A stretch of DNA of 54,416 nucleotides from Candidatus Parcubacteria bacterium (GCA_026395595.1 JAPLYL010000008.1:1-54416); one strand, 5' to 3'; positions 8,766 to 45,861 are shown, numbered from the stretch's first letter. A program made the numbers and translations. Notes: a model not told the origin generated them from the sequence alone.

Positions 8766-9422
8766 CTAATCAATGGCTAAATATTTAAGTTCCCTTTCAA
8801 GAGCTTTTCGTTCCAACATGATGGGGAGCGCATCTTCCGCGTAATTTTTATAGTCTTCCGAATTTTTAAATTGCCCCATGACAATATCTTTGGAGCATAT
8901 TTTGTTTCTTGTCTGACCAACATATTCGTCCCAGCTTGATCGCACGACTTTTAGAGATTCTTCCGATAATTTATGCACACAAAAATTCAGATTGATATAG
9001 GCGCTCAAATACAAAAGATATTCGTTTGAGTTTATCCACGATGATTTGAATGTTCCGCGAAAAAGAGAGCCTTTTCTTTTATATTTATTATTAAAATACA
9101 TGGTGTATCCTCCCCCAACCCTTTGCATAAACTCACTGATCCCCTTTTCGGAAACCTGTTCCAACAGTAAATGAAAATGATTTGGATTTAGACAGTACGA
9201 CACCACGTTTACCAATTTCTTTTGCGGTTTTTTTCCTTTCAATTCCGGAGCATCAGGCAAAGAACCCAAATAAATTCCTCCGAACGATTCTTCCGTATTG
9301 AAATAAATCAAACTTTCAAGAAAACGCATGGAATCATGTTCATCAACAAAGATATGACGATCGTCTACTCCGTGATTATATACATGGTAAAACTCGCCTA
9401 AAGCAAATGGTTCTCGGTTCAT
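8766..9422 (-). mobile_element. Y1 HUH transposase, IS200/RAYT-like (REP-associated tyrosine transposase)
   Basis: YHVYNHG, HUH motif NHFHLLL, GSLFRGTFKS, and a C-terminal YLSAYINLN (YIxxNP-like Tyr motif). Flanked by GGAGGTTTAACCTCC hairpins. Start moved to ATG 9422 because the track ORF extension covers a hairpin and promoter. Confidence 0.8.
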
Positions 9423-9429
9423 AAAAATA

Positions 9430-9458
9430 AGTATACCATTTGGAGGTTTAACCTCCAA
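9430..9458 (-). promoter_or_regulatory. Promoter, leaderless type (TTGGAG-17-TATACT-7-ATG) for the RAYT gene
   Basis: The -35 lies inside REP hairpin 9439-9459. Confidence 0.5.
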
Positions 9459-9459
9459 A
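9439..9459. repeat. REP-like hairpin, 5' flank of the RAYT gene
   Basis: TTTGGAGGT-TTA-ACCTCCAAA shares the GGAGGTTTAACCTCC core and the downstream ACAAAT with the 8733 copy. Confidence 0.85.
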
Positions 9460-9496
9460 CAAATTGAAAGATATGTGGTATCGTTTGTGCATTTTT

Positions 9497-9525
9497 TTGC
9501 CGGTAATGAACAAAAATGGTATTTT
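9497..9525 (+). promoter_or_regulatory. Promoter, leaderless type (TTGCCG-17-TGGTATTTT-6-ATG) for ung
   Basis: No SD before ATG 9532. Confidence 0.45.
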
Positions 9526-9531
9526 ATATGA

Positions 9532-10203
9532 ATGAAATCCCGAGTCAAAATTGAACCGAGCTGGAAAAAGGCGCTTTCTGGCGAATTTAAAAAGCCGTAT
9601 TTTACAAAACTGACTAATTTTGTGAGGAATGAATATGAATCAGAAACCGTATACCCTCCATCTAAATTTATGTTCCAGGCTTTTGAGTTCTGCCCTTTTG
9701 ATAAGGTAAAGGTAGTGATCCTCGGGCAAGATCCGTATCATGGACCGTCGCAAGCGAACGGTTTGTGTTTTTCCGTGAACGAAAAAATTTCTATTCCTCC
9801 CTCTCTTAAAAATATATACAAAGAAATAAGTAGCGACTTGGAGGCTTCGCCTCCAAGTACAGGCAACCTCATGCACTGGGCGGAGCAAGGCATTTTACTT
9901 TTGAACGCAACACTTACCGTAAGAGCGAACGCACCCGGTTCGCATCAACACCAAGGCTGGGAAGAATTTACCGATGCGGTTATACAAGCGCTTTCGGATA
10001 AAAAAGAAAATCTGGTTTTTTTGCTTTGGGGAAAATACGCGCAGGAAAAAGGCGCGAAAATAAATAAAGAAAAACATCTTGTTTTGACAGCGGCGCACCC
10101 CTCGCCATTTTCAGCATACCACGGTTTTTTCGGATGCAAACATTTCAGTAAGACAAATGAATATCTGAAAAAACACGGGGAGAAGGATATCAAATGGGTA
10201 TAA
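9532..10203 (+). CDS. ung: Uracil-DNA glycosylase, family 1
   Basis: VVILGQDPYHGPSQANGLCFSV and HPSPFSA motifs. Typical length. Confidence 0.95.
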   Translation: MKSRVKIEPSWKKALSGEFKKPYFTKLTNFVRNEYESETVYPPSKFMFQAFEFCPFDKVKVVILGQDPYHGPSQANGLCFSVNEKISIPPSLKNIYKEISSDLEASPPSTGNLMHWAEQGILLLNATLTVRANAPGSHQHQGWEEFTDAVIQALSDKKENLVFLLWGKYAQEKGAKINKEKHLVLTAAHPSPFSAYHGFFGCKHFSKTNEYLKKHGEKDIKWV

Positions 10204-10831: not shown

Positions 10832-12229
10832 TTAACCGCCTTTACACTTCTCGCAAAGATCATGACCCTGCCCTTGAACATAGTCACATGACGGAACAGA
10901 GGCAAACATAGAACAATCCACGCTCGGAACACCCATTCCCGCGGAGACTGCCCCGCCGGGGGAAGCGACTGATGGGATATTGGTCGGAGGTGCTTTCATC
11001 GCTCCGGCAGTAGAGGTTTGGATTTCTATTTGCTTTTCAATCTGCTCCCTCATTGCCGCAGGGACAGTAGAGGGTATATTTTTCATAATCTCTTCTTTTG
11101 AAGGCACTGAACCGCTATCTCCCGCACCACTCGGAATACCTCCGGACGGCATCATTTTTGCTTTTATTATTTCCTCAACTTTTCCAAAGCACGCTTCTAT
11201 TTTTCCTCCCATTGACTGCGTCGGCATATCTTGTTTTGCCATGATTCGGTCAAACTTGTCTTTTCCAAGACTGTTTTCCAAACAAGAAATTATTTCACCG
11301 CGGGCTTCTTCCGGGATCTGTTCTAGCCCGGCTTTCATTCTGTCGACACCCGTATTAATGTTTTCTTCCTGTTCTGCCGTCAATAAACCTTTTTCTTTAG
11401 CAAAGTTTGCGCAGGCTGTGGCATTTTCCTCCTTATCACAGTAAGCCGTACATTCATCTTTTCCTTTGCATCCACCGGGACCCTTTCCTCCGACTTTTTT
11501 CGCCATAGCAGAATCCTCAGCGGAAATAAAACCGGCTTTTTCAGCAAAACCGATACATTCATCAAAATGAGAATCTTCGTCACAATAAGCGTTGCATTCA
11601 TCTTTCGTCTGGCATTTTCCCGGAGTTTCTCCATTTTTCAAAAACGGCGCTACTTTACGGGCTTCTGCCAATTGATCAGCAGGAAGAATTCCGGCAGCTT
11701 CCGCAAAATTCAAACATTCATCAATATGAGAACCGACAGCACAGAAACTCTCGCATTCGTTTTTAGTTTTACATGCGCCGGGCATCTTCGATCCTTTAGA
11801 AAGAGCGCTCGCTATTTTTTTCGCTTCCGCCAATTCGGAAGCAGGTATGACGCCGAGTTCTTCACCAAAAGCAATGCATTCGTTGATATTATCAACTTTT
11901 CCTTGGCAGAAAGATTCGCATGATTCTTTGGTCGTACATCCGCCGGGAGTTTGTTTGCTCGCAACTTTTTCCGCCACTATTTTTGAAACGCTGAGTTCTT
12001 CACCGGAGAGCATTCCTTTTTTCTCGGCAAAATTTATGCAGGCGACCATGTTCCCTCCTTTCTCGCAAAAGTCTTTACAGGCGCTTTGATTCCTGCAATT
12101 TCCCAACTCGGGGATAGGATAGCCGATATTTCCGGGAGAAACATTCTGTGCGTATACCATCGCGGTAGAAAAAAGGATCATGGCGACAGCGAAGACTGCG
12201 GAAATGAAAATGTTTTTATGTTGTTTCAT
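10832..12229 (-). CDS. Secreted cysteine-rich repeat protein (5 tandem ~50-aa modules)
   Basis: Signal peptide MKQHKNIFISAVFAVAMILFSTAMVYAQ. Five modules with C-x5-C-x3-C-x8/9-C followed by (I/N)FAExxG...LAEAKK. Confidence 0.75.
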   Translation of the reverse strand: MKQHKNIFISAVFAVAMILFSTAMVYAQNVSPGNIGYPIPELGNCRNQSACKDFCEKGGNMVACINFAEKKGMLSGEELSVSKIVAEKVASKQTPGGCTTKESCESFCQGKVDNINECIAFGEELGVIPASELAEAKKIASALSKGSKMPGACKTKNECESFCAVGSHIDECLNFAEAAGILPADQLAEARKVAPFLKNGETPGKCQTKDECNAYCDEDSHFDECIGFAEKAGFISAEDSAMAKKVGGKGPGGCKGKDECTAYCDKEENATACANFAKEKGLLTAEQEENINTGVDRMKAGLEQIPEEARGEIISCLENSLGKDKFDRIMAKQDMPTQSMGGKIEACFGKVEEIIKAKMMPSGGIPSGAGDSGSVPSKEEIMKNIPSTVPAAMREQIEKQIEIQTSTAGAMKAPPTNIPSVASPGGAVSAGMGVPSVDCSMFASVPSCDYVQGQGHDLCEKCKGG

Positions 12230-12242
12230 ATATTTATGGAAA

Positions 12243-12470
12243 TTATTCAAATGGGTTTTTGTATCCTTGCATCGGATTAATGTCCGCACCGAAAGGGTTG
12301 GTTTTTTCTATGGCATTAGAGGCATTTGACTGCGCCTTCGCAAAAGTTTCCACGATGGTTATCATATCGGGAACCGCAGATTTTTTATTGAGCTGCCATT
12401 GGTATAAAAACCAAAAAAGGACAGCGAGGAAGACGATTCCTATCGCCGAAAAAATATATTTTTTATTCAT
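12243..12470 (-). CDS. Small single-pass membrane protein (75 aa)
   Basis: N-terminal TM (IFSAIGIVFLAVLFWFLY). Its stop lies 14 nt upstream of the Cys-rich gene start. Confidence 0.5.
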   Translation of the reverse strand: MNKKYIFSAIGIVFLAVLFWFLYQWQLNKKSAVPDMITIVETFAKAQSNASNAIEKTNPFGADINPMQGYKNPFE

Positions 12471-12566: not shown

Positions 12567-13208
12567 TTATTTGTAATCTACAAAATATCGTATGCTTGCT
12601 TTTGCTTTGAGAGAAGTAACGAGAGCGGTAATAGCTTCGTTCATTTTCTGCTGTTCCATTTGAGATTTGATCTCTGAACGATACGAATCCTCTTTTCCTG
12701 CGGGAATAGTGATTTTATTTGAGGAAATATATTCTTTTACCTCTTGATCGGTAACGGTCGGCTTAACGGTAATAAGTTTTTCAACTTTCTTCTGAAGAGC
12801 AATTTGAGTGAGCAGGTCTGCCTTGGTAATTCCTTGAGAAGAGAGAGCCTGGTCAAGAGTTCCTCCTTGCGCTTTTATCATCGTTTCAATTCTTGATACT
12901 TCAGCGTTCACTTCATCATCACTGACCTTAACTCCTTGCTTCGCGATTTCTGATTCCACGATCTTTTTAGTGATAAGGTTTTCCAATGCGGTTTTTCCCG
13001 CTTGCTTTTCTGTTTCGCTGATGACCGCAAATCTCCCGATAGGATAACCGTCAACCGTGGCGGCGACAAAGAAACCTTTACAATAATACAAAAGAGCGCA
13101 AACGATTAAAACGCCTGCAATAATAGCGCTCTTTTTTGCATGAGAGCATTTCCATGAGCATGCGCCCTCATGTTTCTTTTTTCCTTCGTGTTTTTTCTCC
13201 TCTTCCAT
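12567..13208 (-). CDS. SurA-N-terminal-domain-like membrane-anchored chaperone (no PPIase domain seen)
   Basis: Start at MEEEKKHEG. One TM segment, then a helical domain resembling the SurA/PrsA N-terminal chaperone domain. The track ORF extension overlaps the divergent CDF gene. Confidence 0.55.
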   Translation of the reverse strand: MEEEKKHEGKKKHEGACSWKCSHAKKSAIIAGVLIVCALLYYCKGFFVAATVDGYPIGRFAVISETEKQAGKTALENLITKKIVESEIAKQGVKVSDDEVNAEVSRIETMIKAQGGTLDQALSSQGITKADLLTQIALQKKVEKLITVKPTVTDQEVKEYISSNKITIPAGKEDSYRSEIKSQMEQQKMNEAITALVTSLKAKASIRYFVDYK

Positions 13209-13374
13209 AAAATATAAATAAACTAGTAAGTAAAATAAGATAAGAAGCGGACAAACTTCTCGTACAGAATAAGTATACCATATTTTTTCGTTTTCAAAAC
13301 AAGTTGACGATATAGCCCGCCCCCTGTATGGTGGGGAAAGAGTTGTCAGTTCATTTTCATAATGAGGTGTTATT

Positions 13375-14064
13375 GTGCATAACCATTGCCATTCTTCGAC
13401 GAAAGACCATTCGCATTCACACAAACAAGCCAGCGAACTGAATCTGTATTTGCTGGCTTTTACCCTTTCTCTTTTTGCCGGAATCATTGAGATTGCCGTT
13501 CGTTACCTCATTTCGGGTTCTGTCTCTCTTTTTGGAGATGCTGCGCACGGAATCTCCGACGGTTCAACCTATGGACTTCTTGCTCTTGTGCTCGTCATTT
13601 GCAAATACCGCCCGGAACAGGAATTAGTCTGGACAAAAATTGCCGTTTGGTTTTCCTTCGGACTCCTCTTTTTTGGAGATTATCTGGTATTTTCCGAAGC
13701 GATTGAACGATTTTTCATCCCGCGCGAAGTGCTCGGCGGATGGACTTTTGTTACCGCAACCTTCAGTTTCGGACTTAATTTGTTCGTCGTCTGGATGCTG
13801 CAAAAGATACCGAAAGAAGAACACAATATCCGCCATGACTCCATGTCTTTCCACGCGCTATCAGACATGTTTGTCTCTGTCGGTGTTATCATTTCTTCTT
13901 TAATTATCATCGCCACCGGCTGGTATGCGGCCGATTGGATTATGGCATTCGCTATTGCTTTCTATCTTTTGTTCCTGTTATGCGTTCTTGCAATAAGAAT
14001 CATTCGTGGAGATTGGAAAATTGGGCACAATCACAGCAAAGAGTGCAGCCATCATCACGAGTAA
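13375..14064 (+). CDS. Cation diffusion facilitator (Zn/Co/Cd-type) transporter lacking the cytoplasmic C-terminal domain
   Basis: GTG start with a GAGG SD. HxxxD in TM2 (HGISD) and TM5 (HALSD). His-rich termini. The ORF ends right after TM6 (229 aa). Confidence 0.8.
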   Translation: MHNHCHSSTKDHSHSHKQASELNLYLLAFTLSLFAGIIEIAVRYLISGSVSLFGDAAHGISDGSTYGLLALVLVICKYRPEQELVWTKIAVWFSFGLLFFGDYLVFSEAIERFFIPREVLGGWTFVTATFSFGLNLFVVWMLQKIPKEEHNIRHDSMSFHALSDMFVSVGVIISSLIIIATGWYAADWIMAFAIAFYLLFLLCVLAIRIIRGDWKIGHNHSKECSHHHE

Positions 14065-14065
14065 A

Positions 14066-14103
14066 AACAAAATTGCCACGATATCAATCGTGGCAATTTT
14101 TTG
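14066..14103. terminator. Bidirectional terminator (CDF / VanW)
   Basis: AATTGCCACGA-TATCAA-TCGTGGCAATT followed by TTTTT. Confidence 0.85.
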
Positions 14104-14113
14104 ACATGAAAAC

Positions 14114-14974
14114 TTAAATTTTTATGTCAATATGATTCGGTTTATACATAACCCTCGCGCAGTTCGTCATTAATTTTTCTTCTTTTATCGCTTTTCCGTC
14201 AACAAGCGTTTCGCGCCATATTTCATTATACCGATAAATTCCATTGGATGTTTCAATAAAGTTATGTTTTTTTTCTTTGATGTGGTATTTTTCTTTTATT
14301 GGTAAAGTGGAAAGAATTTGCCCTTTAAGCTGGCTGTCAGACATCCATAATTTTATTTGCATCGGATATAGCGTCGTGTTTTTTATTTTCAGATCAATCA
14401 GATTATAAAAAATTGTTGCACCGGCGCCAAAAGGAATACTTCTGTCGCTATCGGGAAAAGAATCCCGAGAATGATGTTTCCGCTCGAAGACTTGAAGAGG
14501 GGTATGCAAAAAAAGCCAATACAACAAATTAGAAAGCTGACAAAGTCCTCCGCCTAAACCCTCAACAACTTCCCCGTTTGAAAGAAGCATCCCGTTCACA
14601 TACCCTCTTTTTTTTGTTGTTGCACCGACAAAGTTCCAAAAAGAAAAAATCTCACCAGGAAAAATAATAACGCCATTCAGTGAACGAATGGCTATTTCCA
14701 AATTTTTTATTTTCCCTTCCTGCAATCGAGGATCAGAATCTCCCAGTCTCCTGAAAAGAGGCGATGAATGCCGGGCGATAACGCGGTGAAAAAAAATATG
14801 GCTCTTTCTCTTTGTCAGTCGTGGGTCAAGGTTTTGTTTAACATTATTGACAAAACGACGCACACAGAGAATCAAGGGGAGCAGCATCGGATACTGCGAA
14901 GATACGGCTTTTCTCCCAAAGGCCTCTTCCATCGCTTTTCTGTGAACAGTGTTCAGTATTTCAGAATTTTCCAT
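14114..14974 (-). CDS. VanW-family protein
   Basis: GGGLCQLSNLLYW core typical of the VanW domain. Start placed at MENSEIL to avoid overlap with the upstream ORF. Confidence 0.75.
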   Translation of the reverse strand: MENSEILNTVHRKAMEEAFGRKAVSSQYPMLLPLILCVRRFVNNVKQNLDPRLTKRKSHIFFHRVIARHSSPLFRRLGDSDPRLQEGKIKNLEIAIRSLNGVIIFPGEIFSFWNFVGATTKKRGYVNGMLLSNGEVVEGLGGGLCQLSNLLYWLFLHTPLQVFERKHHSRDSFPDSDRSIPFGAGATIFYNLIDLKIKNTTLYPMQIKLWMSDSQLKGQILSTLPIKEKYHIKEKKHNFIETSNGIYRYNEIWRETLVDGKAIKEEKLMTNCARVMYKPNHIDIKI

Positions 14975-15014
14975 GCGAAATGATATTAGTTCAAACAAAA
15001 AGCAAGGCGCATTT

Positions 15015-15347
15015 TTACCGTGCTGTTTTACACATGGACAGATAAGAGGCGCTAAGTTCGCGGATATCTTCAAAAGATATCTTTCCAGAGAGTTCTTTCA
15101 CTAAAAAATTTTGAAACGCAGGTAAACCGAAGATGACTGCCGGCAAGACAGAATGCGTTTCCTTTATTTTTGGCAGAGTATCCGTTTTTAGAAAAAACTT
15201 CATATTGGTAAAAATCGCACTCAAATTTCCTAAATCGGTCACTGCGGAAATTTCTTGAATAATCGGATTATTCTCAGGAAAAGAGAGGATTTTAAAAAGG
15301 ACTCGTTCCATTTCTCCGATTAAAATGTTTTTTGTTGTTTCGTTCAT
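15015..15347 (-). CDS. Hypothetical protein (110 aa)
   Basis: ORF starting 11 nt downstream of the GGDEF-like gene, on the same strand. No recognisable motif. Confidence 0.5.
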   Translation of the reverse strand: MNETTKNILIGEMERVLFKILSFPENNPIIQEISAVTDLGNLSAIFTNMKFFLKTDTLPKIKETHSVLPAVIFGLPAFQNFLVKELSGKISFEDIRELSASYLSMCKTAR

Positions 15348-15358
15348 AAAAATTGAAA

Positions 15359-16876
15359 TTACAAAATACGACGTATGACATCGGATAATTTTGTTTTTTC
15401 AGAAACAGCCATTTTCACCGTTGGAAATAATTTTACTTGGCCAAAAGGATCTTCTTGCCGGGTGATTGCTTTTTTAATCATCGCTTCGTTTTCCATCGCC
15501 GTTTTCTTCTGAGAGTCTGTGGGATTGGCATATTCTGAAATAATAGCATCCAAAGCGTTTTTCAGAGCGTTTGTTTCGTTCATATTTTCTCCCTCTTCAC
15601 GCACAGCAAAAAGATTTCCCCCGTCCCTGATAATAACGCCATTCATAAAATGGCGATAGATTATTGCAAGTTTCTTCATCATCTCATCTGCGGTCGCATA
15701 ATCATAATGGTTGTTAAAAACGCCAAAATAAGGGACATCCAAACGGATAATCTCAATCTTAGAAACATCCTCTGTCATTTCAACAAGATCAGACAGATAT
15801 TTATCTCCCGATTTATCTAAACGTATCGCGCCAGTACCGGGATCAACCGTTTCCAATCGGATAATTTCTTTTTTCAATCGCTCCTCTAAAAGTTCTTCCC
15901 TTTGTTCTCTGGCAAAAGAAAGTTCGCGTTCTTTTGCTTGCATGAGCCTGACATTTTTTTCAACCCCTTTTGCTTGTTCAAGATATTTATCAGCGGTCTT
16001 TTGTATTTCTGCATTATCATGCGCGATATTTTCCGAAATTTTCACACCCGGGTGTCCTTTCGCCCAAGCAATATCAGCATCCGCTTCGGCAATGCCATAC
16101 ATAACGCCCGACAAAGATTGATCGGTGTTCTCATGGAGTCTGATTTCTTTGGCGGGTGAACGGTAAAAATCCAGAGGAAGAAGCCAATCTTTTTCAGGAA
16201 GAGCATTCAATCTTTTGCGCGCGACTTTTTTCAATAAGTCTCCCGTTCTTTTCTCTGAAACACCGGCATCTCCCAGTTGCCGGTGAAGCCAGGCATCAAC
16301 CGCATTAAGATCTCCTTTTCGTTCCATCTCAAGATATTCCGGATTCTTGGTTATCAATTTCATCTGAGCTTTCACGTTCGTCTCTAATTTTGCGGCGTCA
16401 TAGGCTTCGCGTCCAATTCTTTCTTCCACTAAAAATTTCTCTTTCTTTTGATTGAATCGCTCAAAAAAACTTTCAAGCCTTGCGTCTCCTTTACGGGTAA
16501 TAAAAATAATTTCGTCTCCTCCCGCTCGCACGATCTCAAAAGGCCGTTCTCTTATGTCATTGCCAAAAATTTCCCCGGCGGTGGCATTCAGTAAACCAAA
16601 GCAGTCATCAACATTTTTTCTTGCCGAAGTAGTATCTTCATCCGGACGCCGAAGCATTTCATTACCAACCCCCATTCCTGCCATATCTCCAAGAGTCATT
16701 TCCATTTCATCTCCGAATTTTTCATGCAAATAGGCAATCCCCTCCGGTAAGTACAAGAGTTCTTTATTCCTCATTCCGGTCATATCGTCCAAACGCAAAT
16801 GATATTCGCGTCCTTTCGGCTGTTCGTTTTTTTGAGGCGTCAGTTCAAAACTTGGCATTTTTTCAGCAAAGTTCAT
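15359..16876 (-). CDS. Protein with two tandem divergent GGDEF/palm-like nucleotide cyclase domains
   Basis: Domain 1 (aa ~27-150): DDMTGMRNKELL, GDMAGMGVGNE, VRAGGDEIIFI. Domain 2 (aa ~343-450): VDPGTGAIR, LDVPYFGVFNNHYDYATADEMMKKLA, IIRDGGNLFAV (degenerate). A coiled-coil-like linker lies between them. Confidence 0.65.
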   Translation of the reverse strand: MNFAEKMPSFELTPQKNEQPKGREYHLRLDDMTGMRNKELLYLPEGIAYLHEKFGDEMEMTLGDMAGMGVGNEMLRRPDEDTTSARKNVDDCFGLLNATAGEIFGNDIRERPFEIVRAGGDEIIFITRKGDARLESFFERFNQKKEKFLVEERIGREAYDAAKLETNVKAQMKLITKNPEYLEMERKGDLNAVDAWLHRQLGDAGVSEKRTGDLLKKVARKRLNALPEKDWLLPLDFYRSPAKEIRLHENTDQSLSGVMYGIAEADADIAWAKGHPGVKISENIAHDNAEIQKTADKYLEQAKGVEKNVRLMQAKERELSFAREQREELLEERLKKEIIRLETVDPGTGAIRLDKSGDKYLSDLVEMTEDVSKIEIIRLDVPYFGVFNNHYDYATADEMMKKLAIIYRHFMNGVIIRDGGNLFAVREEGENMNETNALKNALDAIISEYANPTDSQKKTAMENEAMIKKAITRQEDPFGQVKLFPTVKMAVSEKTKLSDVIRRIL

Positions 16877-16883
16877 GCATTTT

Positions 16884-17363
16884 TTATTTTCTTGCCGGTC
16901 TTTTTTGTTTTACATTAAAAAGTCCCACGAAAATAGAATAGCCAAGCAATGCGCCAAATCCGATCTGTTTCATGACTCCAAGCAAATCAGTGGTCTGCCA
17001 TTCCTGCATTACCTTGCCGTCTTTTACTTTTCTCATAAAAATACCATGGACTTCGAGATGTTTTTTGTTGGCGGGGGCGCCCATAAAACTGCCGGTGTTT
17101 ACCGCTGTAGAAATAAATCTGATGGATGCCATGTCTCCATCAACAAGGATATTAGGAAACTCCATTTTTAGGCCAGAAAAAGCCGCTTTCATGTCCTGCA
17201 TGAAACCAATATATTCATTTTTAGTAAACTTCATACCATCTCCGGTATAAGTAAAATTGTCGTCCAACAGTTTATCCAAATCGTCCCATCTCCCTTCCAA
17301 AATAGCATAAGAAACTGCAAGCGCAGTCTTTTTTGTTTGTTCTCTTTGTTCGTTCGTATCCAT
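16884..17363 (-). CDS. SnoaL-like (ester cyclase / NTF2-fold) protein with C-terminal TM anchor
   Basis: The pattern DDNFTYTGDG...FPNILVDGDMASIRF...GSFMGAPANKKHLEVHGIFMRKVKDGKVMQEWQTTDLLGVMKQIGF fits the ester-cyclase family. The hydrophobic tail is GALLGYSIFVGLF. Confidence 0.7.
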   Translation of the reverse strand: MDTNEQREQTKKTALAVSYAILEGRWDDLDKLLDDNFTYTGDGMKFTKNEYIGFMQDMKAAFSGLKMEFPNILVDGDMASIRFISTAVNTGSFMGAPANKKHLEVHGIFMRKVKDGKVMQEWQTTDLLGVMKQIGFGALLGYSIFVGLFNVKQKRPARK

Positions 17364-17444
17364 AAAATTTATTAATTACCAAAGTATAATAAGAAAAGTA
17401 TAGCAAAAGAAAATCAAAAAGTCACCGATTCCCCTCTTGGAAAC

Positions 17445-18074
17445 TTAATCTTCAATATGTAAACCGAGAGTTGAAGCGAGGTAAATCGCCTGACCGGTGT
17501 TTACGGTTATGTTTCCAAAAGAGTCCTTGCTTATGGCGATACCTTCAATGATAGATTCTTTAAAATTCACATTATTCAACTTCGCATGAGAAAATTGAGA
17601 ATTTTTAAGATTGCAGTTTTTGAAAACAACGTTCTCCATTTCAGCTCCGGCAAAATCGGCATTCTCCAGATCGCAATCAAAAAAGAGCATATTTTTTATC
17701 TTGGCAAAACGAAGAGAGAGGTCATTGCCTTTTGATCTTTCAATAACGACATCACGAGCAAAACATCTCATTAACTGCGTTCCCTGAAAACGGCTTTTAT
17801 CTATGACAATTCTTTCCCAATAAACCTGGTGAAAAACCGCTCCGGCAAAACTTGCGCCCGTAAAAACAGAATCAATGGATTTCATATCTTCTACCAGAGA
17901 AGACTGCAAAGACAAATTATGTATGATGCTCGTACTGATATTTATTTCATCTATATTTTCAGAATCAAAAGGCGCTCCATCAAGAAGAGAATTGTCTAAA
18001 TAAAGAACCGAACCTTCCTCAAAAGAAGACTTCTTTAACCGGCCTTTATCCATAATCGGTTTTCGTATTTCCAT
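17445..18074 (-). CDS. Pentapeptide repeat protein
   Basis: Consecutive A(D/N)LxX-type pentads, for example CDLENADFAGAEMENVVFKNCNLKNSQFSHAKLNNVNFKES. Confidence 0.85.
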   Translation of the reverse strand: MEIRKPIMDKGRLKKSSFEEGSVLYLDNSLLDGAPFDSENIDEINISTSIIHNLSLQSSLVEDMKSIDSVFTGASFAGAVFHQVYWERIVIDKSRFQGTQLMRCFARDVVIERSKGNDLSLRFAKIKNMLFFDCDLENADFAGAEMENVVFKNCNLKNSQFSHAKLNNVNFKESIIEGIAISKDSFGNITVNTGQAIYLASTLGLHIED

Positions 18075-21023: not shown

Positions 21024-21108
21024 TGGTGCCCAGGAGAGGACTTGAACCTCCACGCCTTTCGGCATATCCACCTCAAGGATACTTGGCTACCAATTACAAC
21101 ACCTGGGC
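21024..21108 (-). tRNA. tRNA-Leu (GAG), class II, CCA encoded
   Basis: Acceptor GCCCAGG/CCTGGGC, anticodon arm TATCC-TTGAGGT-GGATA, long variable arm TGCCGAAAGGCGT, 3' ACCA. Confidence 0.9.
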
Positions 21109-21115
21109 GTATTTG

Positions 21116-21790
21116 TCAAGTAAATAAACTCTTACCTACTCCCGACAATGCTTTTTCTATTTTTAGCCGTTTCCGACTTAAACAAATGAGGTTCTCTCTA
21201 TTATACATACTTTTTAAAAGAATGGAAGAGTCTGCCTTCGCATATTTCAATTGATACACAGACGATGTTTTTCCATGACTGATATGCCCGTGTATTTTCA
21301 ATCGTTTATAAATTTCATCCCTGACCCAATCTATGTGTTCCTTACTTGCTGAGATGAAAGTGGTGTAAAACATAAAACTGGACTTCCACCGAGGATCATA
21401 ATAAGAATAAAAACAACCATCACCATCGAATGAACCCCGAAGAAAATCGAAAAAGTATTTTTGGGGAACTTTTATAATTCCAACCGTTTTTGACTTATTT
21501 GGAGTAACCCCAATTGTTTTAAGAAAATCACAAAAAAGAACATCCCCAATCTGAATTAAAAAATATCGTTTTTCTCTTTTAACACCGCTCGCTTTTTTCC
21601 CTATTTGATAGCTTGTGCCGAGAGCTTTTTGAAAATTATCAATCTGTTCCTCATCTTTTGAAGTAAAATTCACATGGCGTCCATCTTTTGATAAACTTCC
21701 GTCGGTAACAATGAGTCCGATGGCGTACGCAAAATCAGCAGACCATTTTATCTTTACTACACCTTTTGGTTTTGGACCTCTGTTCCCCAT
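21116..21790 (-). mobile_element. Free-standing double-motif LAGLIDADG homing endonuclease
   Basis: Two motifs, FAYAIGLIVTDGSL and FLRGSFDGDGCF. 224 aa. The stop lies 8 nt upstream of the tRNA-Leu 5' end. Confidence 0.85.
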
Positions 21791-30143: not shown

Positions 30144-30674
30144 TTATGGCATAAGGTAACTGTCCAAAACGATAGTAAACGAAGCCCTCCACGAAGAAGG
30201 TAATTCGTTACTTGGCGGATTGGCAAGAAGGTTGACTTTTCTTATCGTGACACGATAAGGCATTTCTTCGACAAGAGAAAAGAGCCGATAGATATTTTCA
30301 AACCCGCCGGACGCCGTAAATTCCAAAAGAAAAGGCTCCCCTTTCTTTTTCGGACTCGCAACAGACGTAACCTGAACATCAGCGAGAGATTGTTTTCCAA
30401 GGCTTTCAATTTGTTCAATAAAAGTCAGCGTTTGAGATGGAGTTATCAAATGCTCGTTTAAAAGAGCTCTCTGCTTTTCCGTATCAGAGAGGGAACTCTC
30501 CAATCTTTTCAGCGTCTCCGCATCGGAAGTTTGTTGGTAAAAAGAAGCATAAATTTCTTGTGTTTGTGTGTTCCTCCAGTGGGTCGCAAAAAACAATCCG
30601 AGGTATAAAAAGAAAAGAATTGCATCAACAATGATAAAGAGGATTATGGTTTTTTTTATTTTTCCGTTATTCAT
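30144..30674 (-). CDS. pilO: PilO-like type IV pilus assembly protein
   Basis: N-terminal TM plus coiled coil plus a ferredoxin-like C-terminal part. Positioned after pilM and pilN. Confidence 0.6.
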   Translation of the reverse strand: MNNGKIKKTIILFIIVDAILFFLYLGLFFATHWRNTQTQEIYASFYQQTSDAETLKRLESSLSDTEKQRALLNEHLITPSQTLTFIEQIESLGKQSLADVQVTSVASPKKKGEPFLLEFTASGGFENIYRLFSLVEEMPYRVTIRKVNLLANPPSNELPSSWRASFTIVLDSYLMP

Positions 30675-30678
30675 GATA

Positions 30679-31251
30679 TTAAGGCGAGGTAACGGCGATA
30701 TTTAAAGTGTAGGATAAATTCGTACTGCTTATCAAGTTTGAGAGGGGGAGATCTACGGAAGAAAAATCTTTTTTCTTGTTCAAAGCATCAACAAAAGAAA
30801 GAAGTTCTGCACGATTATCCGCTCTTCCTTGGACAAGGATACTCGGAGATGCGGTTTTTTTTCCTTTCGGAGGACGAATCCCCGCATTGCGGTCAAAAGA
30901 AAAATTGGTTATATACACTCCTCCCGGACGGCTTTCAACGATCTCTCTGAAGAGAGAGAGGACGCTCTCTGTGGAGGTTGAATTTTTAAGAAGAAGCGCG
31001 ATCTTTGTATTCGCCTCCTTCGCGTTTCTTTTCATTTCCAAAACTTGAGATTGTTTGGTTATAACTTCCTTCGTTTGAGACTCGGCGAGAACCTTCTGGT
31101 ATTGCAAACGAGAGAGAAAGAATGAAGGTAAAAAAGAGGAAATGGCGACGATCAGAATAATAAAAATTACGGGAAGCCACACGGACAAAACTAAGAGATG
31201 ATACTCTTTTCTGATTCTTTGCTTTTCGTTTTCAGGGAGAAGGTTAATCAT
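30679..31251 (-). CDS. pilN: PilN-like type IV pilus assembly protein
   Basis: The MINLLPENEKQRIRKE N-terminus (INLLP motif) is followed by a TM segment. Confidence 0.8.
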   Translation of the reverse strand: MINLLPENEKQRIRKEYHLLVLSVWLPVIFIILIVAISSFLPSFFLSRLQYQKVLAESQTKEVITKQSQVLEMKRNAKEANTKIALLLKNSTSTESVLSLFREIVESRPGGVYITNFSFDRNAGIRPPKGKKTASPSILVQGRADNRAELLSFVDALNKKKDFSSVDLPLSNLISSTNLSYTLNIAVTSP

Positions 31252-31259
31252 AAAATGGT

Positions 31260-32339
31260 TTATTTTTTTGAGTAGAGAGAAAGTCCTATGGCAGTAGAAT
31301 AAAGAAGTGAATCTTGAAACGAAATTTTTGGAATTTCCTTTTCAAAAGAAAAGACGTTCCTCCAGACATTCGCCATTTCCGTAGGAACATTAAGAGCTTC
31401 GGAAAAGCACTCAGGCAAACCAAAAAGCGAAGACCCTGACCCGCAAAGAATAATACTATTTATCGGTTCTTTTTTTATTCCGCTTTTATCTCGGTGCGTT
31501 TGCCAATAGATGAAGTGTTTATTAACCTCTTCTTTTAATTCTGTTATAACAGCGGAAAAAATTTTAAAAACCTCTTCGGAGGGTTCTTTGTCGGAACGAA
31601 GACTCCGCATCATCTCGTCCGCCTCGTCATGAGTAATGTTCAGTTCTTTTTTGAGAGCGGAGATAATCTCTTTTTCTCCAATATCTATATCGGAGGTGAA
31701 ACATACTACTCCTTGACTTACGACATACACACCGGTCTTTATCCTTCCCAAATCAAGAATCATGGAAGTCTCCATGCTTCCGCTCGGAATCACCGCACGA
31801 GCCAGAGCGTTTGAATCAGTTTCCAAAGAGAGGAGACTGATTCCCACTTCGGCAAAAACATTCGCATAAAAAGCGATTACGTCTTTCGGCGCAGCCAAAA
31901 CAACAACGGAAGTGTCCCCCTGTGCATTTCCCTCTTTCACGACACTATAATCAAACACCGCATCAGCAACCTTGATAGGTATATGTTCTTCCAGTTGAAG
32001 CTCTATACTCTCGTACATTTCGCTCTTTTTAACAGCTGATATTTCCATTTCGGAAAGATACGCGAGAGATTCCGGCAATGATAAGTGAATGAATTCAATA
32101 TCATGTTCTTTTTTGAAACGAAGCAATATCTCTTTGAGCGCTCCGGGATTTTTTATCTGCCCGAGAGAAATGGTTCCTTCCGGCAACGAGTATTCTCCAA
32201 AATCCGCCAATTCAAAATCTCCGTTTTTTGCAGCAAGTTTAACAAACCGCAGAGATACCTCTGAGAGATCTACCCCAACTCCTTCCACGTTCAAACAACG
32301 CGGAACGGGGAAACTTTTAAAAAGAATTTCCAATGACAT
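31260..32339 (-). CDS. pilM: PilM-like type IV pilus assembly ATPase-fold protein
   Basis: Actin-like fold pattern (GVDLSEVSLRFVKL..., ILDLGRIKTGV..., ILCGSGS). 359 aa, directly upstream of pilN. Confidence 0.85.
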   Translation of the reverse strand: MSLEILFKSFPVPRCLNVEGVGVDLSEVSLRFVKLAAKNGDFELADFGEYSLPEGTISLGQIKNPGALKEILLRFKKEHDIEFIHLSLPESLAYLSEMEISAVKKSEMYESIELQLEEHIPIKVADAVFDYSVVKEGNAQGDTSVVVLAAPKDVIAFYANVFAEVGISLLSLETDSNALARAVIPSGSMETSMILDLGRIKTGVYVVSQGVVCFTSDIDIGEKEIISALKKELNITHDEADEMMRSLRSDKEPSEEVFKIFSAVITELKEEVNKHFIYWQTHRDKSGIKKEPINSIILCGSGSSLFGLPECFSEALNVPTEMANVWRNVFSFEKEIPKISFQDSLLYSTAIGLSLYSKK

Positions 32340-41985: not shown

Positions 41986-42024
41986 AAAAATCCCGTACAG
42001 GTAATGCTGTACGGGATATTTTTT
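41986..42024. terminator. Bidirectional terminator between the DUF3326-like gene and the hydrogenase large subunit
   Basis: ATCCCGTACAG-GTAATG-CTGTACGGGAT with A- and T-runs. Confidence 0.85.
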
Positions 42025-43315: not shown

Positions 43316-43333
43316 AATTTCTGGTGTTATCTG

Positions 43334-45361: not shown

Positions 45362-45372
45362 AGAATTTATGA

Positions 45373-45861
45373 TTAAATAGCCGGTCGCAATTCTTTTACT
45401 AATGCATCTATCGCTTTTAAGAAAGCATCGGGGTTCATAGGACAGCCGGGCAGTTCCACATCCACTTTTATGACATCGGAGAGTTTAAGCACTTTGGGAA
45501 GCGCGCCGAATCTAGTAACAAGAAAGTCTATCGCTTCTTTCTGTCCTTCAGTAAAAGAGTTTCTCTGTCCGGCAGGGAGTCCGACACAAGCGCACGACCC
45601 AACAGCAACGACCTTTTTTGCCTTGCTCCTAATCTCTTTCACTTTCTCCTCCTGTTCAGGAGAAGCAACTGCTCCTTCAATAAAAGCAACATCAAATTCA
45701 TCCATGAGATTATTTGATTTAAGAACTCTTGCATGACGAAAATCAAAAATCTTTTTCCATTCTTCCCAATGGTCATTCATGATTTCCGTCATAACAATAG
45801 TACTATCCTCACAACAAGAGAAAGAGAACCACCCCAGCTTAATTTTTTCTTGATTTTCCAT
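45373..45861 (-). CDS. NiFe hydrogenase small subunit, minimal (proximal-cluster only)
   Basis: The SFSCCEDS, AVGSCACVG and LPGCPMNP Cys motifs, and DVAFIEGAV. Only 162 aa, with no additional Cys clusters. Confidence 0.85.
   Translation of the reverse strand: MENQEKIKLGWFSFSCCEDSTIVMTEIMNDHWEEWKKIFDFRHARVLKSNNLMDEFDVAFIEGAVASPEQEEKVKEIRSKAKKVVAVGSCACVGLPAGQRNSFTEGQKEAIDFLVTRFGALPKVLKLSDVIKVDVELPGCPMNPDAFLKAIDALVKELRPAI

What the first reader, a model, noticed from the sequence alone, without database searches (positions are those of the whole stretch)
14114..17363. Operon built around a protein with two tandem divergent GGDEF/palm-like domains (GGDEI plus degenerate DGGNLF)
The 505-aa ORF 15359-16876 carries, in canonical order, the three landmark segments of a GGDEF-type nucleotide cyclase: DDMTGMRNKELL, GDMAGMGVGNE and VRAGGDEIIFI.

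After a ~190-aa helical/charged linker it carries a second copy of the same pattern: VDPGTGAIR, LDVPYFGVFNNHYDYATADEMMKKLA and IIRDGGNLFAV. In this copy the acidic catalytic pair is lost.

One intact and one degenerate palm in a single chain recalls pseudo-heterodimeric cyclases and the two-palm layout of Cas10. It does not resemble classical diguanylate cyclases, which homodimerise.

The gene is tightly packed on the same strand. A TM-anchored SnoaL-like protein lies upstream (7-nt gap). An unassignable 110-aa protein (11-nt gap) and a VanW-family protein lie downstream. No PilZ, EAL or HD-GYP partner is visible in the window.

This could be an undescribed nucleotide second-messenger or oligonucleotide-synthesising module linked to the envelope.
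Basis: partly seen in the sequence, partly recalled or inferred. Interest (0 to 1): 0.72.

Follow-up and report, generated by a model that had tools for sequence, protein, structure and literature searches.

The report
Two-GGDEF cyclase with orphan partner
A candidate-phyla-radiation bacterium encodes a single protein with one intact and one permanently degenerate diguanylate-cyclase (GGDEF) domain, always paired with a small protein of unknown fold; it is probably an unusual c-di-GMP synthase, and the "envelope operon" around it is not conserved.

Summary
The 505-aa ORF (15359-16876, minus strand) contains two genuine GGDEF domains. The C-terminal one matches canonical diguanylate cyclases directly (hhalign 98.6 %). 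The N-terminal one, which carries the invariant GGDE, is missed by Pfam but linked through distant relatives (98.9 % and 98.0 %). Across 37 homologues the N-domain keeps every catalytic and guanine-contact residue. The C-domain keeps the guanine contacts and first metal Asp but essentially never the acidic pair (one E in one distant relative).

Both halves are ordinary GGDEF domains, not Cas10 or mCpol palms. Fold matches to Cas10 and adenylyl cyclase 9 superpose only one domain. SnoaL and VanW vary even among 65-76 % identical relatives. The conserved unit is the cyclase plus the "unassignable" 110-aa gene, found directly downstream in 13 of 14 independent close-family loci (Parcubacteria/Nomurabacteria, Peribacteria, a UGA=Gly lineage). 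This partner is a confidently predicted six-helix protein with no sequence or structural relative.

Best reading: a GTP-using GGDEF cyclase with a catalytic N-domain, a non-catalytic guanine-nucleotide-binding C-domain, and a dedicated regulatory subunit. It is a new variant of a known kind, of moderate interest.

The parts
15359..16876 (-). Two-GGDEF protein, 505 aa, predicted soluble. The coordinates include the stop codon.
   Evidence: ORF list. Family of 20 close homologues. AF2 model with pLDDT 86 and pTM 0.81. Maximum 19-residue hydropathy 0.67.
16412..16795 (-). N-terminal GGDEF core (residues 28-155): the DDMTGMR motif, beta1 with D64, N72, D90, R117, and the GGDE hairpin (residues 119-122 = nt 16511-16522).
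   Evidence: Transitive hhalign link, 98.9 % then 98.0 %. Pfam GGDEF hits the equivalent segment of relatives. All listed residues are conserved in the close, giant and distant groups. Coordinates verified.
16178..16411 (-). Helical insertion in the N-terminal GGDEF (residues 156-233), with invariant E165, N167, K169, K173 and T176.
   Evidence: AF2 helices 156-175, 179-186, 190-201 and 211-224. Invariant columns. The role is unknown.
16022..16177 (-). Probable beta4/alpha4 that closes the N-terminal GGDEF (residues 234-285): PLDFY strand and ADADIAWxKGHPG helix. K273 is proposed as the equivalent of the phosphate-binding Lys of canonical 'ADxALYxAKxxGRN'.
   Evidence: AF2 strands 237-246 followed by helix 251-274. 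Invariant D236, Y238, D266, D268, W271, K273, H275, P276 and G277. K273 is conserved in all three groups. Profile support is weak: E 3.6e-4 and 0.11, but in register. This part is an inference.
15848..16021 (-). Helical-hairpin stalk (residues 286-343) that leads into the C-terminal GGDEF.
   Evidence: AF2 helices 288-324 and 328-343. The profile aligns to the WspR stalk plus GGDEF across profile positions 311-453.
15362..15847 (-). C-terminal degenerate GGDEF (residues 344-505). It has DPGTGAIR, D380, N388, D397 and R417, with DGGN (residues 418-421 = nt 15614-15625) in place of GG[DE]E. It has no alpha4 Lys/Arg motif.
   Evidence: Pfam and NCBIfam GGDEF hits. PDB cyclases. hhalign 98.6 %. 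The positions equivalent to E370/E371 are non-acidic in 36 of 37 sequences, with a single E at the first position in one distant relative.
15015..15347 (-). Conserved partner gene: a 110-aa orphan six-helix protein, 11 nt downstream of the cyclase.
   Evidence: A homologue lies directly downstream in L001-L006, L008-L015, L017, L018 and L019. Only 6 database members exist. AF2 pLDDT 92.9. No PDB, BFVD, Pfam, PHROGs or PADLOC match.
16884..17363 (-). SnoaL-like protein with a hydrophobic C-terminal tail. It is probably co-transcribed here but is not a conserved member of the module.
   Evidence: Pfam SnoaL 1.8e-18. Found only in L013 among the related loci. Tail hydropathy 1.49.
14114..14974 (-). 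VanW-family protein (likely start at ATG 14974). It is probably co-transcribed here but is not a conserved member of the module.
   Evidence: Pfam VanW 1.5e-42. Present only in L017 and absent from L013, L019 and all others. Start codon checked.
17397..17425 (-). Promoter-like site upstream of SnoaL. This is a consensus match only.
   Evidence: The number of such sites in the region is no higher than in shuffled sequence.
14069..14100 (-). Terminator-like hairpin with a 14-bp stem, just after VanW. It is the only strong one in the four-gene stretch.

Best explanation
This is a two-gene signalling module specific to candidate-phyla-radiation (CPR) bacteria.

Gene 1 encodes a soluble single-chain protein with two GGDEF domains joined by a helical-hairpin stalk.
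- The N-terminal domain is very divergent and carries a helical insertion of about 80 aa. It still keeps the full catalytic set: the metal Asp D64, the guanine contacts N72 and D90, R117, G119-G120-D121-E122, and probably the phosphate-binding Lys K273. I infer that it is the only catalytic site and that it uses GTP.
- The C-terminal domain is closer in sequence to classical cyclases. It keeps the guanine contacts (N388, D397) and the first metal Asp (D380). In all 37 homologues it has lost the acidic pair as a pair (DGGNL; one distant relative has a single E) and it lacks the alpha4 Lys/Arg motif. I infer that it binds a guanine nucleotide without catalysing anything. It could hold the acceptor GTP opposite the N-site in an intramolecular pseudo-dimer, or it could act as an allosteric GTP or c-di-GMP sensor.

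The most likely product is c-di-GMP, with 5'-pppGpG as the intermediate or as the end product if the second bond cannot form.

Gene 2 encodes a 110-aa orphan six-helix protein. It is always immediately downstream and never occurs alone. I infer that it is a stoichiometric regulatory or sensor subunit, or the first effector, of the cyclase.

Shown: domain identities, residue conservation, gene linkage and taxonomic range. Inferred: enzymatic activity, substrate, product, and the roles of the C-domain and the partner.
For: - Both halves are GGDEF domains: C-half hhalign 98.6 %, E 5e-16, Pfam, NCBIfam and PDB hits; N-half by transitive hhalign at 98.9 % and 98.0 % and Pfam hits on relatives.
- The top Foldseek hits for the model are GGDEF domains at probability 1.0.
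- Residue table over 20 close, 8 giant or code-25 and 9 distant homologues. N-half D64, N72, D90, R117, GGDE and K273 are conserved in every complete sequence. C-half D380, N388, D397, R417 and GG are conserved, while the E370/E371 equivalents are N/S/G/T and similar, followed by L/F.
- The register of D64, N72 and D90 against canonical DxD...N...D is given by hhalign.
- The partner gene is immediately downstream in 13 of 14 independent close-family loci (the window plus 12 others), including a UGA=Gly lineage and a giant-protein version. In the 14th locus, L016, a weak homologue lies about 3 kb upstream.
- The partner family is found nowhere else.
- The pair sits in different genomic contexts, which argues for functional rather than syntenic linkage.
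- The family spans Parcubacteria, Nomurabacteria, Peribacteria and a code-25 lineage.
- In relatives the same module is fused behind FHA domains or membrane-spanning giant proteins. That is how cyclase output domains usually sit behind input domains.
Against: - There is no biochemical evidence of any kind.
- The N-half is so divergent that direct profile searches fail.
- The beta4/alpha4 and K273 assignment has only weak support.
- No c-di-GMP receptor or phosphodiesterase was found in the 54-kb window, and nothing is published on c-di-GMP signalling in CPR bacteria in the searched library.
- I had no access to model coordinates, so whether the two nucleotide sites face each other is untested. 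TM scores of about 0.2 to two-palm enzymes argue against a Cas10-like or adenylyl-cyclase-like mutual orientation.
- The partner's function rests on linkage alone.
Confidence: 0.55

Rival explanations
1. It is a conventional homodimeric diguanylate cyclase. Two chains pair through the helical stalk so that the two N-terminal GGDEF domains make c-di-GMP together. The C-terminal degenerate GGDEF would be only a regulatory, autoinhibitory or dimerisation module, like the GTP-sensing degenerate GGDEF of PdeA (CC3396) or other pseudo-enzyme domains. It would play no part in catalysis.
For: All characterised GGDEF cyclases act as dimers of catalytic domains (general knowledge; restated in the abstract of PMC7825114, listed). 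The C-half is preceded by a stalk helix that aligns with the WspR stalk. The C-half keeps the A-site guanine contacts typical of GTP-sensing degenerate GGDEFs.
Against: The stalk precedes the C-half, not the catalytic N-half. AF2 folds it back as an intramolecular hairpin with high overall pTM. The N-half has only about 27 residues before it and no recognisable dimerisation or sensor domain.
Confidence: 0.25
2. It is not a c-di-GMP synthase but makes a different nucleotide signal: linear pppGpG, a mixed dinucleotide as Hypr-GGDEFs do, or short oligonucleotides as Cas10 or mCpol do. The small helical protein would be the receptor or effector. That would make this a conflict or defence-type signalling pair.
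For: The one-active, one-inactive palm layout resembles Cas10 and class III cyclases, and Foldseek lists adenylyl cyclase 9 (probability 0.84) and Cas10 (0.54). The gene pair is strictly linked to an orphan protein, as in cyclase-effector systems. No classical c-di-GMP partner is nearby. One N-half member gave a faint mCpol hit (E 0.15).
Against: Both guanine-specifying residues (the N335 and D344 equivalents) are conserved in both halves, which predicts GTP and GTP. There are no PADLOC hits. There are no cas, CARF, SAVED or toxin domains nearby. The partner has no enzymatic or membrane features. The pair sits among housekeeping genes and looks vertically inherited across CPR lineages, not in defence islands. 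TM scores to Cas10 and AC9 are only about 0.2.
Confidence: 0.12
3. It is a non-enzymatic receptor or scaffold. Both GGDEF domains only bind nucleotides (c-di-GMP or GTP), and the protein relays the signal through the partner.
For: Degenerate GGDEF domains often act as receptors (background stated in the preprint 10.64898/2026.08.21.746235). The N-half is very divergent and has a large insertion.
Against: GGDE, D64, N72, D90 and R117 are strictly invariant from 40 % identical relatives to the distant family. That is hard to explain without catalysis. Neither half has a canonical RxxD I-site. The N-half has only R111-x-x-E114, one residue closer to GG, and that R is not conserved in the distant relatives.
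Confidence: 0.06
4. One reading: a functional four-gene envelope module, SnoaL - two-palm protein - 110-aa protein - VanW.
For: The four genes are tightly packed on one strand. There is a promoter-like site upstream of SnoaL and the only strong terminator is after VanW. SnoaL recurs in L013 and VanW in L017.
Against: L013 has SnoaL but no VanW. L017 has VanW but no SnoaL. L019 and all loci at 64 % identity or below have neither. The recurrences are explained by residual synteny among close relatives, which share the CDF and PpiC genes as well.
Confidence: 0.02

Closest known systems
GGDEF-domain diguanylate cyclases (Pfam PF00990; PleD, WspR, DgcZ, DgcB)
   Same: Both halves are homologous to the GGDEF domain. 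The N-half keeps the GG[DE]E motif, the metal Asp and the two guanine contacts. The C-half is preceded by a stalk helix that runs into the D-x-(L)TG motif, as in WspR and DgcB.
   Different: There are two GGDEF domains in one chain with a fixed active/degenerate asymmetry. The catalytic domain is the one that Pfam cannot see, and it carries a helical insertion of about 80 aa. There is no RxxD I-site and no recognisable sensor domain. A dedicated orphan partner gene is present. The close family is restricted to CPR.
Degenerate GGDEF domains used as nucleotide sensors (for example the GTP-binding GGDEF of Caulobacter PdeA/CC3396, or PelD/PopA-type c-di-GMP receptors). This comparison is from general knowledge.
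   Same: The C-half has lost the catalytic acidic pair but keeps the nucleotide-contact residues. This is the pattern seen in A-site GTP sensors.
   Different: Here the degenerate domain is coupled to an active GGDEF, not to an EAL domain or a transcription or secretion output. It lacks the RxxD I-site used by PelD/PopA-type receptors.
Pseudo-heterodimeric two-palm nucleotide cyclases: Cas10 (Palm1/Palm2) and class III adenylyl cyclases (C1/C2)
   Same: These have one chain with two related palm domains, only one carrying the full catalytic motif. Both appear among the Foldseek hits (7pde_A probability 0.84, 6xn7_A probability 0.54). Cas10 genes are likewise followed by a small all-helical subunit gene (general knowledge), a superficial parallel to the partner.
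   Different: TM scores normalised to the query are only about 0.2, so the mutual arrangement is not shared. There is no HD or zinc-finger domain, no cas genes and no significant mCpol or Cas10 profile hits. The partner's matches to Csm small-subunit chains are insignificant (E above 3).
Cyclase plus small adjacent regulator pairs (H-NOX/DGC, SiaC/SiaD, YfiR/YfiN)
   Same: A small protein encoded next to a GGDEF cyclase controls its activity. SiaD-SiaC appears among the structural hits (7e6g). H-NOX next to a DGC is described in PMC5588039.
   Different: The partner here has no similarity in sequence or fold to H-NOX, SiaC or YfiR. Its only invariant residues are G40 and N41.

Membership tests
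GGDEF domain (PF00990): C-terminal half | Significant profile similarity to the GGDEF domain | tested here: met
   hhalign 98.6 %, E 5e-16 against a canonical GGDEF profile. PDB profile hits to WspR and other cyclases, E 4e-4. Pfam 21.4 bits, just below the gathering score of 23.8. A relative, P0023, passes at 30.2 bits.
GGDEF domain (PF00990): C-terminal half | GG[DE]EF catalytic motif with an acidic pair | tested here: not met
   The motif is DGGNLF. The equivalent positions are N/S/G/T and similar, followed by L/F, across 37 sequences, with a single E in one distant relative. It is a GGDEF fold but not a catalytic one.
GGDEF domain (PF00990): C-terminal half | Substrate contacts: beta1 Asp (PleD D327) and guanine-binding Asn and Asp (N335, D344) | tested here: met
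   D380, N388 and D397 align to these positions and are conserved in all groups.
GGDEF domain (PF00990): N-terminal half | Significant profile similarity to the GGDEF domain | tested here: met
   The direct test is weak (hhalign 24 %, E 8e-4; no Pfam hit). The transitive test is strong: 98.9 %, E 1.7e-17 to the N-halves of relatives, which score 98.0 %, E 1.9e-13 against canonical GGDEF and Pfam E 2.5e-14.
Diguanylate cyclase (active GGDEF): N-terminal half | GG[DE]EF motif, metal Asp, and guanine-binding Asn and Asp | tested here: met
   GGDEI (residues 119-123), D64, N72 and D90 are in register with DxD...N...D. They are conserved in the close, giant and distant groups.
Diguanylate cyclase (active GGDEF): N-terminal half | Complete fold with beta4/alpha4 and phosphate-binding Lys/Arg (PleD K442/R446) | tested here: inconclusive
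   The AF2 secondary-structure order fits. ADADIAWxK273GHPG is in register with ADxALYxAKxxGRN, and K273 is conserved in all groups. However, hhalign support is weak and no Arg equivalent is evident.
Diguanylate cyclase (active GGDEF) | Product-inhibition I-site RxxD five residues upstream of GG. This is common in the family but not obligatory. | tested here: not met
   Neither half has RxxD at the canonical spacing. The N-half has R111-P-F-E114 one residue closer to GG, and that R is not conserved in distant relatives.
Diguanylate cyclase (active GGDEF) | Converts 2 GTP to c-di-GMP; active as a dimer of GGDEF domains | not testable with these tools
   This needs enzyme assays and oligomeric-state measurements.
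Cas10 / mCpol (CRISPR polymerase palm) | Profile match to Cas10 or mCpol palm; GGDD motif; associated HD, zinc-finger or D4 domains; cas or CARF neighbours | tested here: not met
   No significant Pfam hit (mCpol E 0.15 in 1 of 13 members). PADLOC gives none. Foldseek probability is 0.54-0.75 with TM about 0.2. There are no cas genes in any locus.
Class III adenylyl/guanylyl cyclase C1-C2 pseudo-heterodimer | Guanylate_cyc profile match and head-to-tail palm pair with an interface active site | tested here: not met
   No Pfam Guanylate_cyc hit. AC9 (7pde_A) is listed at probability 0.84, but TM normalised to the query is 0.22 with rmsd 39.5 Å. The mutual orientation could not be inspected because no coordinates were available.
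Conserved four-gene operon (SnoaL - cyclase - partner - VanW) | Co-occurrence of all four genes across related genomes | tested here: not met
   The partner is present in all close-family loci (weak and displaced in L016). SnoaL is only in L013 and VanW only in L017.

The most novel reading that the evidence does not exclude
The protein is a self-contained, single-chain asymmetric GGDEF enzyme. The degenerate C-domain would hold the acceptor guanine nucleotide opposite the single catalytic N-domain. This is a Cas10-like or class-III-like 'one catalytic site, one acceptor site' solution that arose independently within the GGDEF family. Nucleotide synthesis (c-di-GMP, or a linear pppGpG or oligo-G signal) would then need no homodimerisation and would instead be gated by a dedicated orphan helical subunit. 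This would also make it the core of an uncharacterised second-messenger pathway in CPR bacteria.
Probability: 0.25. Interest if true: 0.72.

Novelty: new variant of a known kind. Interest (0 to 1): 0.5.

Why it matters
GGDEF cyclases are thought to be controlled almost entirely by bringing two identical catalytic domains together. A family in which one active and one permanently inactive but nucleotide-competent GGDEF are fused in one chain offers a natural test of whether a single catalytic half-site with a passive acceptor site can make c-di-GMP, or stops at pppGpG. Such a family, conserved across deep CPR lineages including a recoded UGA=Gly lineage, has been maintained for a long time.

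It also points to cyclic-nucleotide signalling in CPR/Patescibacteria. These are reduced episymbionts whose signalling is barely studied; I found no paper on the topic. A pilMNO cluster lies 13 kb away in the window, and type IV pili are central to host attachment and a classic c-di-GMP output.

The strictly linked orphan six-helix protein is a candidate new class of cyclase regulator or nucleotide receptor.

There is a practical lesson as well. The catalytic domain is invisible to Pfam, so standard censuses would score these genomes as lacking an active cyclase. NCBI calls the closest homologue 'hypothetical protein'.

Tried and rejected
1. Direct detection of the N-half as GGDEF failed. Pfam scans of 13 members found nothing relevant. 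A PDB profile search gave only spurious LSm hits. hhalign of the N-half against the C-half gave 30 columns at E 0.055. The question was resolved only through the distant relatives.

2. The splice test for a split N-domain (residues 26-155 plus 230-285 against canonical GGDEF) did not extend the alignment into beta4/alpha4. The bridge through distant relatives was in register but weak. I keep this as an inference only. An alternative alpha4 candidate (TADKYLEQAKGVEKN, residues 294-308) was flagged by my local HMM at an insignificant E of 30. I judge it less likely, because it lies in the stalk helix and is less conserved.

3. Cas10, mCpol and defence-system readings: PADLOC gave nothing, PHROGs gave only weak hits to unknown-function families on the C-half, and Foldseek TM scores were about 0.2. 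Rejected as membership.

4. Partner identification failed everywhere: Pfam on 7 members, PHROGs, PADLOC, PDB Foldseek and BFVD Foldseek. Weak globin, copper-storage and Csm small-subunit look-alikes all have E of 1 or more. There is no conserved His or Cys, so it is not a globin or a Csp.

5. Rosetta-stone search for partner-cyclase fusions found none.

6. A homology search with the distant-relative alignment returned only the query itself, so the taxonomy of the distant family stays unknown. The one exception is L007, which has diderm-type neighbours (BamA, OmpH).

7. Literature searches for single-chain GGDEF-GGDEF proteins and for c-di-GMP in CPR found nothing pertinent. The library lacks most subscription journals, so this is not proof of absence.

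8. A local EAL search could not be built because no seed sequences were available.

9. The metagenome scan added only 3 loci.

Full report
**1. Observation**

On the minus strand the window carries four tightly packed ORFs:
- SnoaL-like, 16884-17363
- the 505-aa ORF, 15359-16876, after a 7-nt gap
- a 110-aa ORF, 15015-15347, after an 11-nt gap
- VanW, 14114-15073

The VanW ORF as listed starts at a TTG inside the 110-aa gene. The ATG at 14974 (MENSEIL...) is the more likely start. Pfam confirms SnoaL (1.8e-18) and VanW (1.5e-42) and finds nothing for the 110-aa protein.

**2. Both halves are GGDEF domains**

Pfam and NCBIfam detect GGDEF only in the C-terminal, degenerate half, and below threshold (residues 367-459, 21.4 bits against a gathering score of 23.8).

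A profile of 20 homologues hits solved diguanylate cyclases (WspR, DgcB and others) over the C-half, including the preceding stalk helix. hhalign against a canonical GGDEF profile that I built from retrieved single-domain cyclases gives 98.6 %, E 5e-16.

The N-half, which carries the invariant GGDE, is not detected directly:
- Pfam on 13 members finds nothing relevant.
- A PDB profile search gives only spurious LSm hits.
- hhalign against canonical GGDEF gives 24 %, E 8e-4, although all three motifs are in register.

An exhaustive profile search of 1.84 billion representatives found more distant relatives of about 520-900 aa that match across both halves. In these, Pfam GGDEF hits the segment equivalent to our N-half at E down to 2.5e-14. 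Two hhalign comparisons close the chain:
- our N-half against their N-halves: 98.9 %, E 1.7e-17, 137 columns
- their N-halves against canonical GGDEF: 98.0 %, E 1.9e-13

The AF2 model built from the family alignment is confident (pLDDT 86, pTM 0.81) and shows the beta-alpha-alpha-beta-beta-alpha order in both halves. Its best PDB matches are GGDEF domains at probability 1.0.

**3. Anatomy**

I aligned 37 sequences (20 close, 8 giant or recoded, 9 distant) to the family HMM.

| Role (PleD numbering) | N-half | C-half |
|---|---|---|
| Metal Asp (D327) | D64, conserved | D380, conserved |
| Guanine contact (N335) | N72, conserved | N388, conserved |
| Guanine contact (D344) | D90, conserved | D397, conserved |
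| Arg before GG | R117, conserved | R417, conserved |
| GG | G119-G120, conserved | G419-G420, conserved |
| Acidic pair (E370/E371) | D121-E122, conserved | N/S/G/T and similar, then L/F; a single E in one distant relative |
| alpha4 Lys (K442) | K273, conserved (assignment inferred) | no equivalent motif |

The distant relatives show the same split: R[VL]GGDEF in the N-half and R-x-[DNGSA]-GG-x-L in the C-half. The active/degenerate asymmetry is therefore old and maintained.

- a helical insertion (156-233), with invariant E165, N167, K169, K173 and T176
- the closing beta4/alpha4 of the N-domain (234-285; PLDFY and ADADIAWxKGHPG, in register with canonical ADxALYxAKxxGRN)
- a helical-hairpin stalk (286-343)

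This partition rests on the AF2 secondary-structure order and residue conservation. Profile tests were in register but weak, so I mark it as inferred.

Neither half has a canonical RxxD I-site. The protein has no hydrophobic segment.

**4. What is conserved around it**

I examined contexts of homologues from 38 % to 76 % identity.

An HMM of the 110-aa protein finds a homologue immediately downstream of the cyclase gene in the window and in 12 further independent loci:
- L001/2, L003, L004, L005/6/18, L011/12, L013, L014, L015, L017 and L019
- L008, which uses UGA=Gly
- L009/10, behind a 1,587-aa giant version

In L016, a 1,394-aa giant at 38 % identity, a weak homologue lies 3 kb upstream instead.

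The genomic contexts otherwise differ: ribosomal genes, glycosyltransferases, tRNA synthetases.

SnoaL recurs only in L013 (76 % identity, Ca. Nomurabacteria), whose order is SnoaL-cyclase-partner-CDF-PpiC. VanW recurs only in L017 (74 % identity), whose order is cyclase-partner-VanW-CDF. L019 (65 %) has neither. Both are therefore variable flanks that are shared through residual synteny.

In the window the four genes may still be co-transcribed. There is a promoter-like site at 17425-17397, and the only strong terminator lies at 14100-14069.

The partner family has only six database members, all next to these cyclases. It is never fused to the cyclase. It is predicted with pLDDT 92.9 as a six-helix protein. 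It has no significant match in PDB, BFVD, Pfam, PHROGs or PADLOC.

**5. Distribution**

Named sources are Ca. Parcubacteria (NCBI MCX6739382.1, annotated 'hypothetical protein'), Ca. Nomurabacteria and Ca. Peribacteria.

L008 has in-frame TGA codons exactly at the conserved glycines (RF**DEI, DP*T*A, RE**), which shows a code-25 lineage.

The whole module also forms the C-terminus of 1,000-1,800-aa proteins that have TM-like segments. One of these has two FHA domains and one has LysM.

The distant two-GGDEF family lacks the partner. One member sits in a diderm genome with BamA and OmpH neighbours.

The window itself is ordinary CPR chromosome: L19, LigA, GatCA, phosphoglucomutase and 5 tRNAs. 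No PilZ, EAL or HD-GYP was found among about 46 ORFs scanned, but a pilMNO cluster lies at 30144-32339.

**6. Mechanism**

- Shown: two GGDEF domains, the residue pattern, the strict cyclase-partner linkage, and the CPR range.
- Inferred:
  - The N-domain is the only catalytic site and uses GTP, because the metal and guanine contacts are intact.
  - The C-domain binds a guanine nucleotide but cannot catalyse.
  - The partner is a regulatory subunit or effector.

Two versions remain open.
- Intramolecular pseudo-dimer. The C-domain presents the acceptor nucleotide to the N-site. This is attractive because the stand-alone protein has no other dimerisation or sensor domain and AF2 gives a compact single-chain model.
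- Conventional homodimer of N-domains, with the C-domain as an allosteric GTP or c-di-GMP sensor.

I could not inspect coordinates. The low TM scores (about 0.2) to Cas10 and adenylyl cyclase 9 show that the mutual arrangement of the palms is not the same as in those enzymes. The likely product is c-di-GMP, or pppGpG if the second bond cannot form.

**7. Comparison and novelty**

The protein belongs to the GGDEF superfamily. The N-half meets the sequence criteria of an active cyclase, apart from the unproven alpha4 Lys/Arg. The C-half meets the fold criteria but fails the catalytic motif. It is not a Cas10, mCpol or class III cyclase member.

Literature searches found no description of such single-chain active-plus-degenerate GGDEF proteins or of c-di-GMP signalling in CPR. 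The library is incomplete, and from memory GGDEF-GGDEF architectures do exist in domain databases.

I therefore rate it a new variant of a known kind. Its distinguishing points are:
- a CPR-specific family
- a catalytic domain that is invisible to Pfam
- a fixed asymmetry between the two domains
- a strictly linked orphan partner

Interest is 0.5. It would rise to about 0.7 if the intramolecular asymmetric mechanism, or a non-c-di-GMP product, were demonstrated.

Noticed in passing
window 10832-12289 (-): A 485-aa protein with an N-terminal hydrophobic segment, followed by about six tandem Cys-rich repeats of roughly 45 aa (a pattern like GxCxTKxxCxxFCxxxxxxxxCxxFAExxG). The only Pfam hit is a weak one to a defensin-like family (E 3.7e-5, below threshold). 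It may be a secreted or surface repeat protein.
   Followed up: partly
window 30144-32339 (-): A type IV pilus assembly cluster, pilM (31260-32339), pilN (30679-31251) and pilO (30144-30674), lies about 13 kb from the cyclase. Type IV pili are a classic c-di-GMP-controlled output and are important for CPR host attachment. No link was tested.
   Followed up: partly
L008:4528-6528: This relative's genome uses UGA as glycine (code 25, Gracilibacteria/Absconditabacteria type). In-frame TGA codons fall on the conserved glycines of GGDE, DPGTG and the degenerate GG motif (EGG in this relative), and also in the partner gene. The database protein P0028 shows W at these positions because it was translated with a UGA=Trp code.
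   Followed up: yes
L013:3656-5174: In the Ca. Nomurabacteria MAG the cyclase gene has a +1 frameshift right after KGHPGVKMPENISR, at the proposed end of the N-terminal domain. This splits it into a 287-aa N-GGDEF ORF (P0015) and a separate ORF for the stalk plus C-GGDEF. It could be an assembly error, a pseudogene or a natural split; this was not resolved.
   Followed up: partly
P0021-P0027 (L009:5526-10289, L016:1298-5482): The complete two-GGDEF module also forms the C-terminus of giant proteins of 1,000-1,800 aa. These have coiled-coil regions and TM-like glycine-rich segments. P0027 has two FHA domains immediately before the module, and P0025 has a LysM domain. The distant relative P0128 also has FHA. 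This hints at phospho-threonine-dependent input.
   Followed up: partly
window 17445-18074 (-); L014:1781-2416: A pentapeptide-repeat protein lies two genes upstream of the cyclase in the window. Its close homologue (E 6e-79) lies directly downstream of the partner gene in L014. This is a possible loose association, seen in only 2 of about 14 loci.
   Followed up: partly
window 16178-16411 (-) (residues 156-233 of the cyclase): The helical insertion in the N-terminal GGDEF contains a strikingly invariant helix, ETNxKAQMKLITK (E165, N167, K169, K173, T176), with no counterpart in canonical GGDEF domains. Its function is unexplained. It could be the partner-binding surface or could supply extra phosphate contacts.
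   Followed up: no
window 21116-21790 (-), next to tRNA-Leu 21024-21108: A LAGLIDADG-type (homing-endonuclease or WhiA-like) ORF lies immediately beside a tRNA-Leu gene.
   Followed up: no
window 8766-9548 (-): An IS200-like Y1 transposase domain (Pfam Y1_Tnp, E 6e-8) occupies the C-terminal part of a 260-aa ORF. It is the only mobile-element signature seen in the window.
   Followed up: no
window 42023-45861 (-): A NiFe-hydrogenase large-subunit-like ORF (42023-43315) and a 20-kDa Oxidored_q6 small-subunit-like ORF (45373-45861) flank a 675-aa TPR-repeat protein. This is an unusual interruption of a hydrogenase-like pair.
   Followed up: no
L012 and L014 (MAG MJ-time_bin-8470): The same MAG carries two copies of the cyclase-partner pair on different contigs. 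Both are about 55 % identical to the window protein. They may be paralogues or a mix of strains in the bin.
   Followed up: no
window 12567-13487 (-) and 13375-14064 (+): The listed SurA/PpiC-like ORF overlaps the oppositely oriented cation-efflux (CDF) ORF by about 110 nt. The SurA-like domain begins around residue 158, so the true start is probably an internal Met and the long N-terminal extension is an artefact of ORF calling.
   Followed up: no
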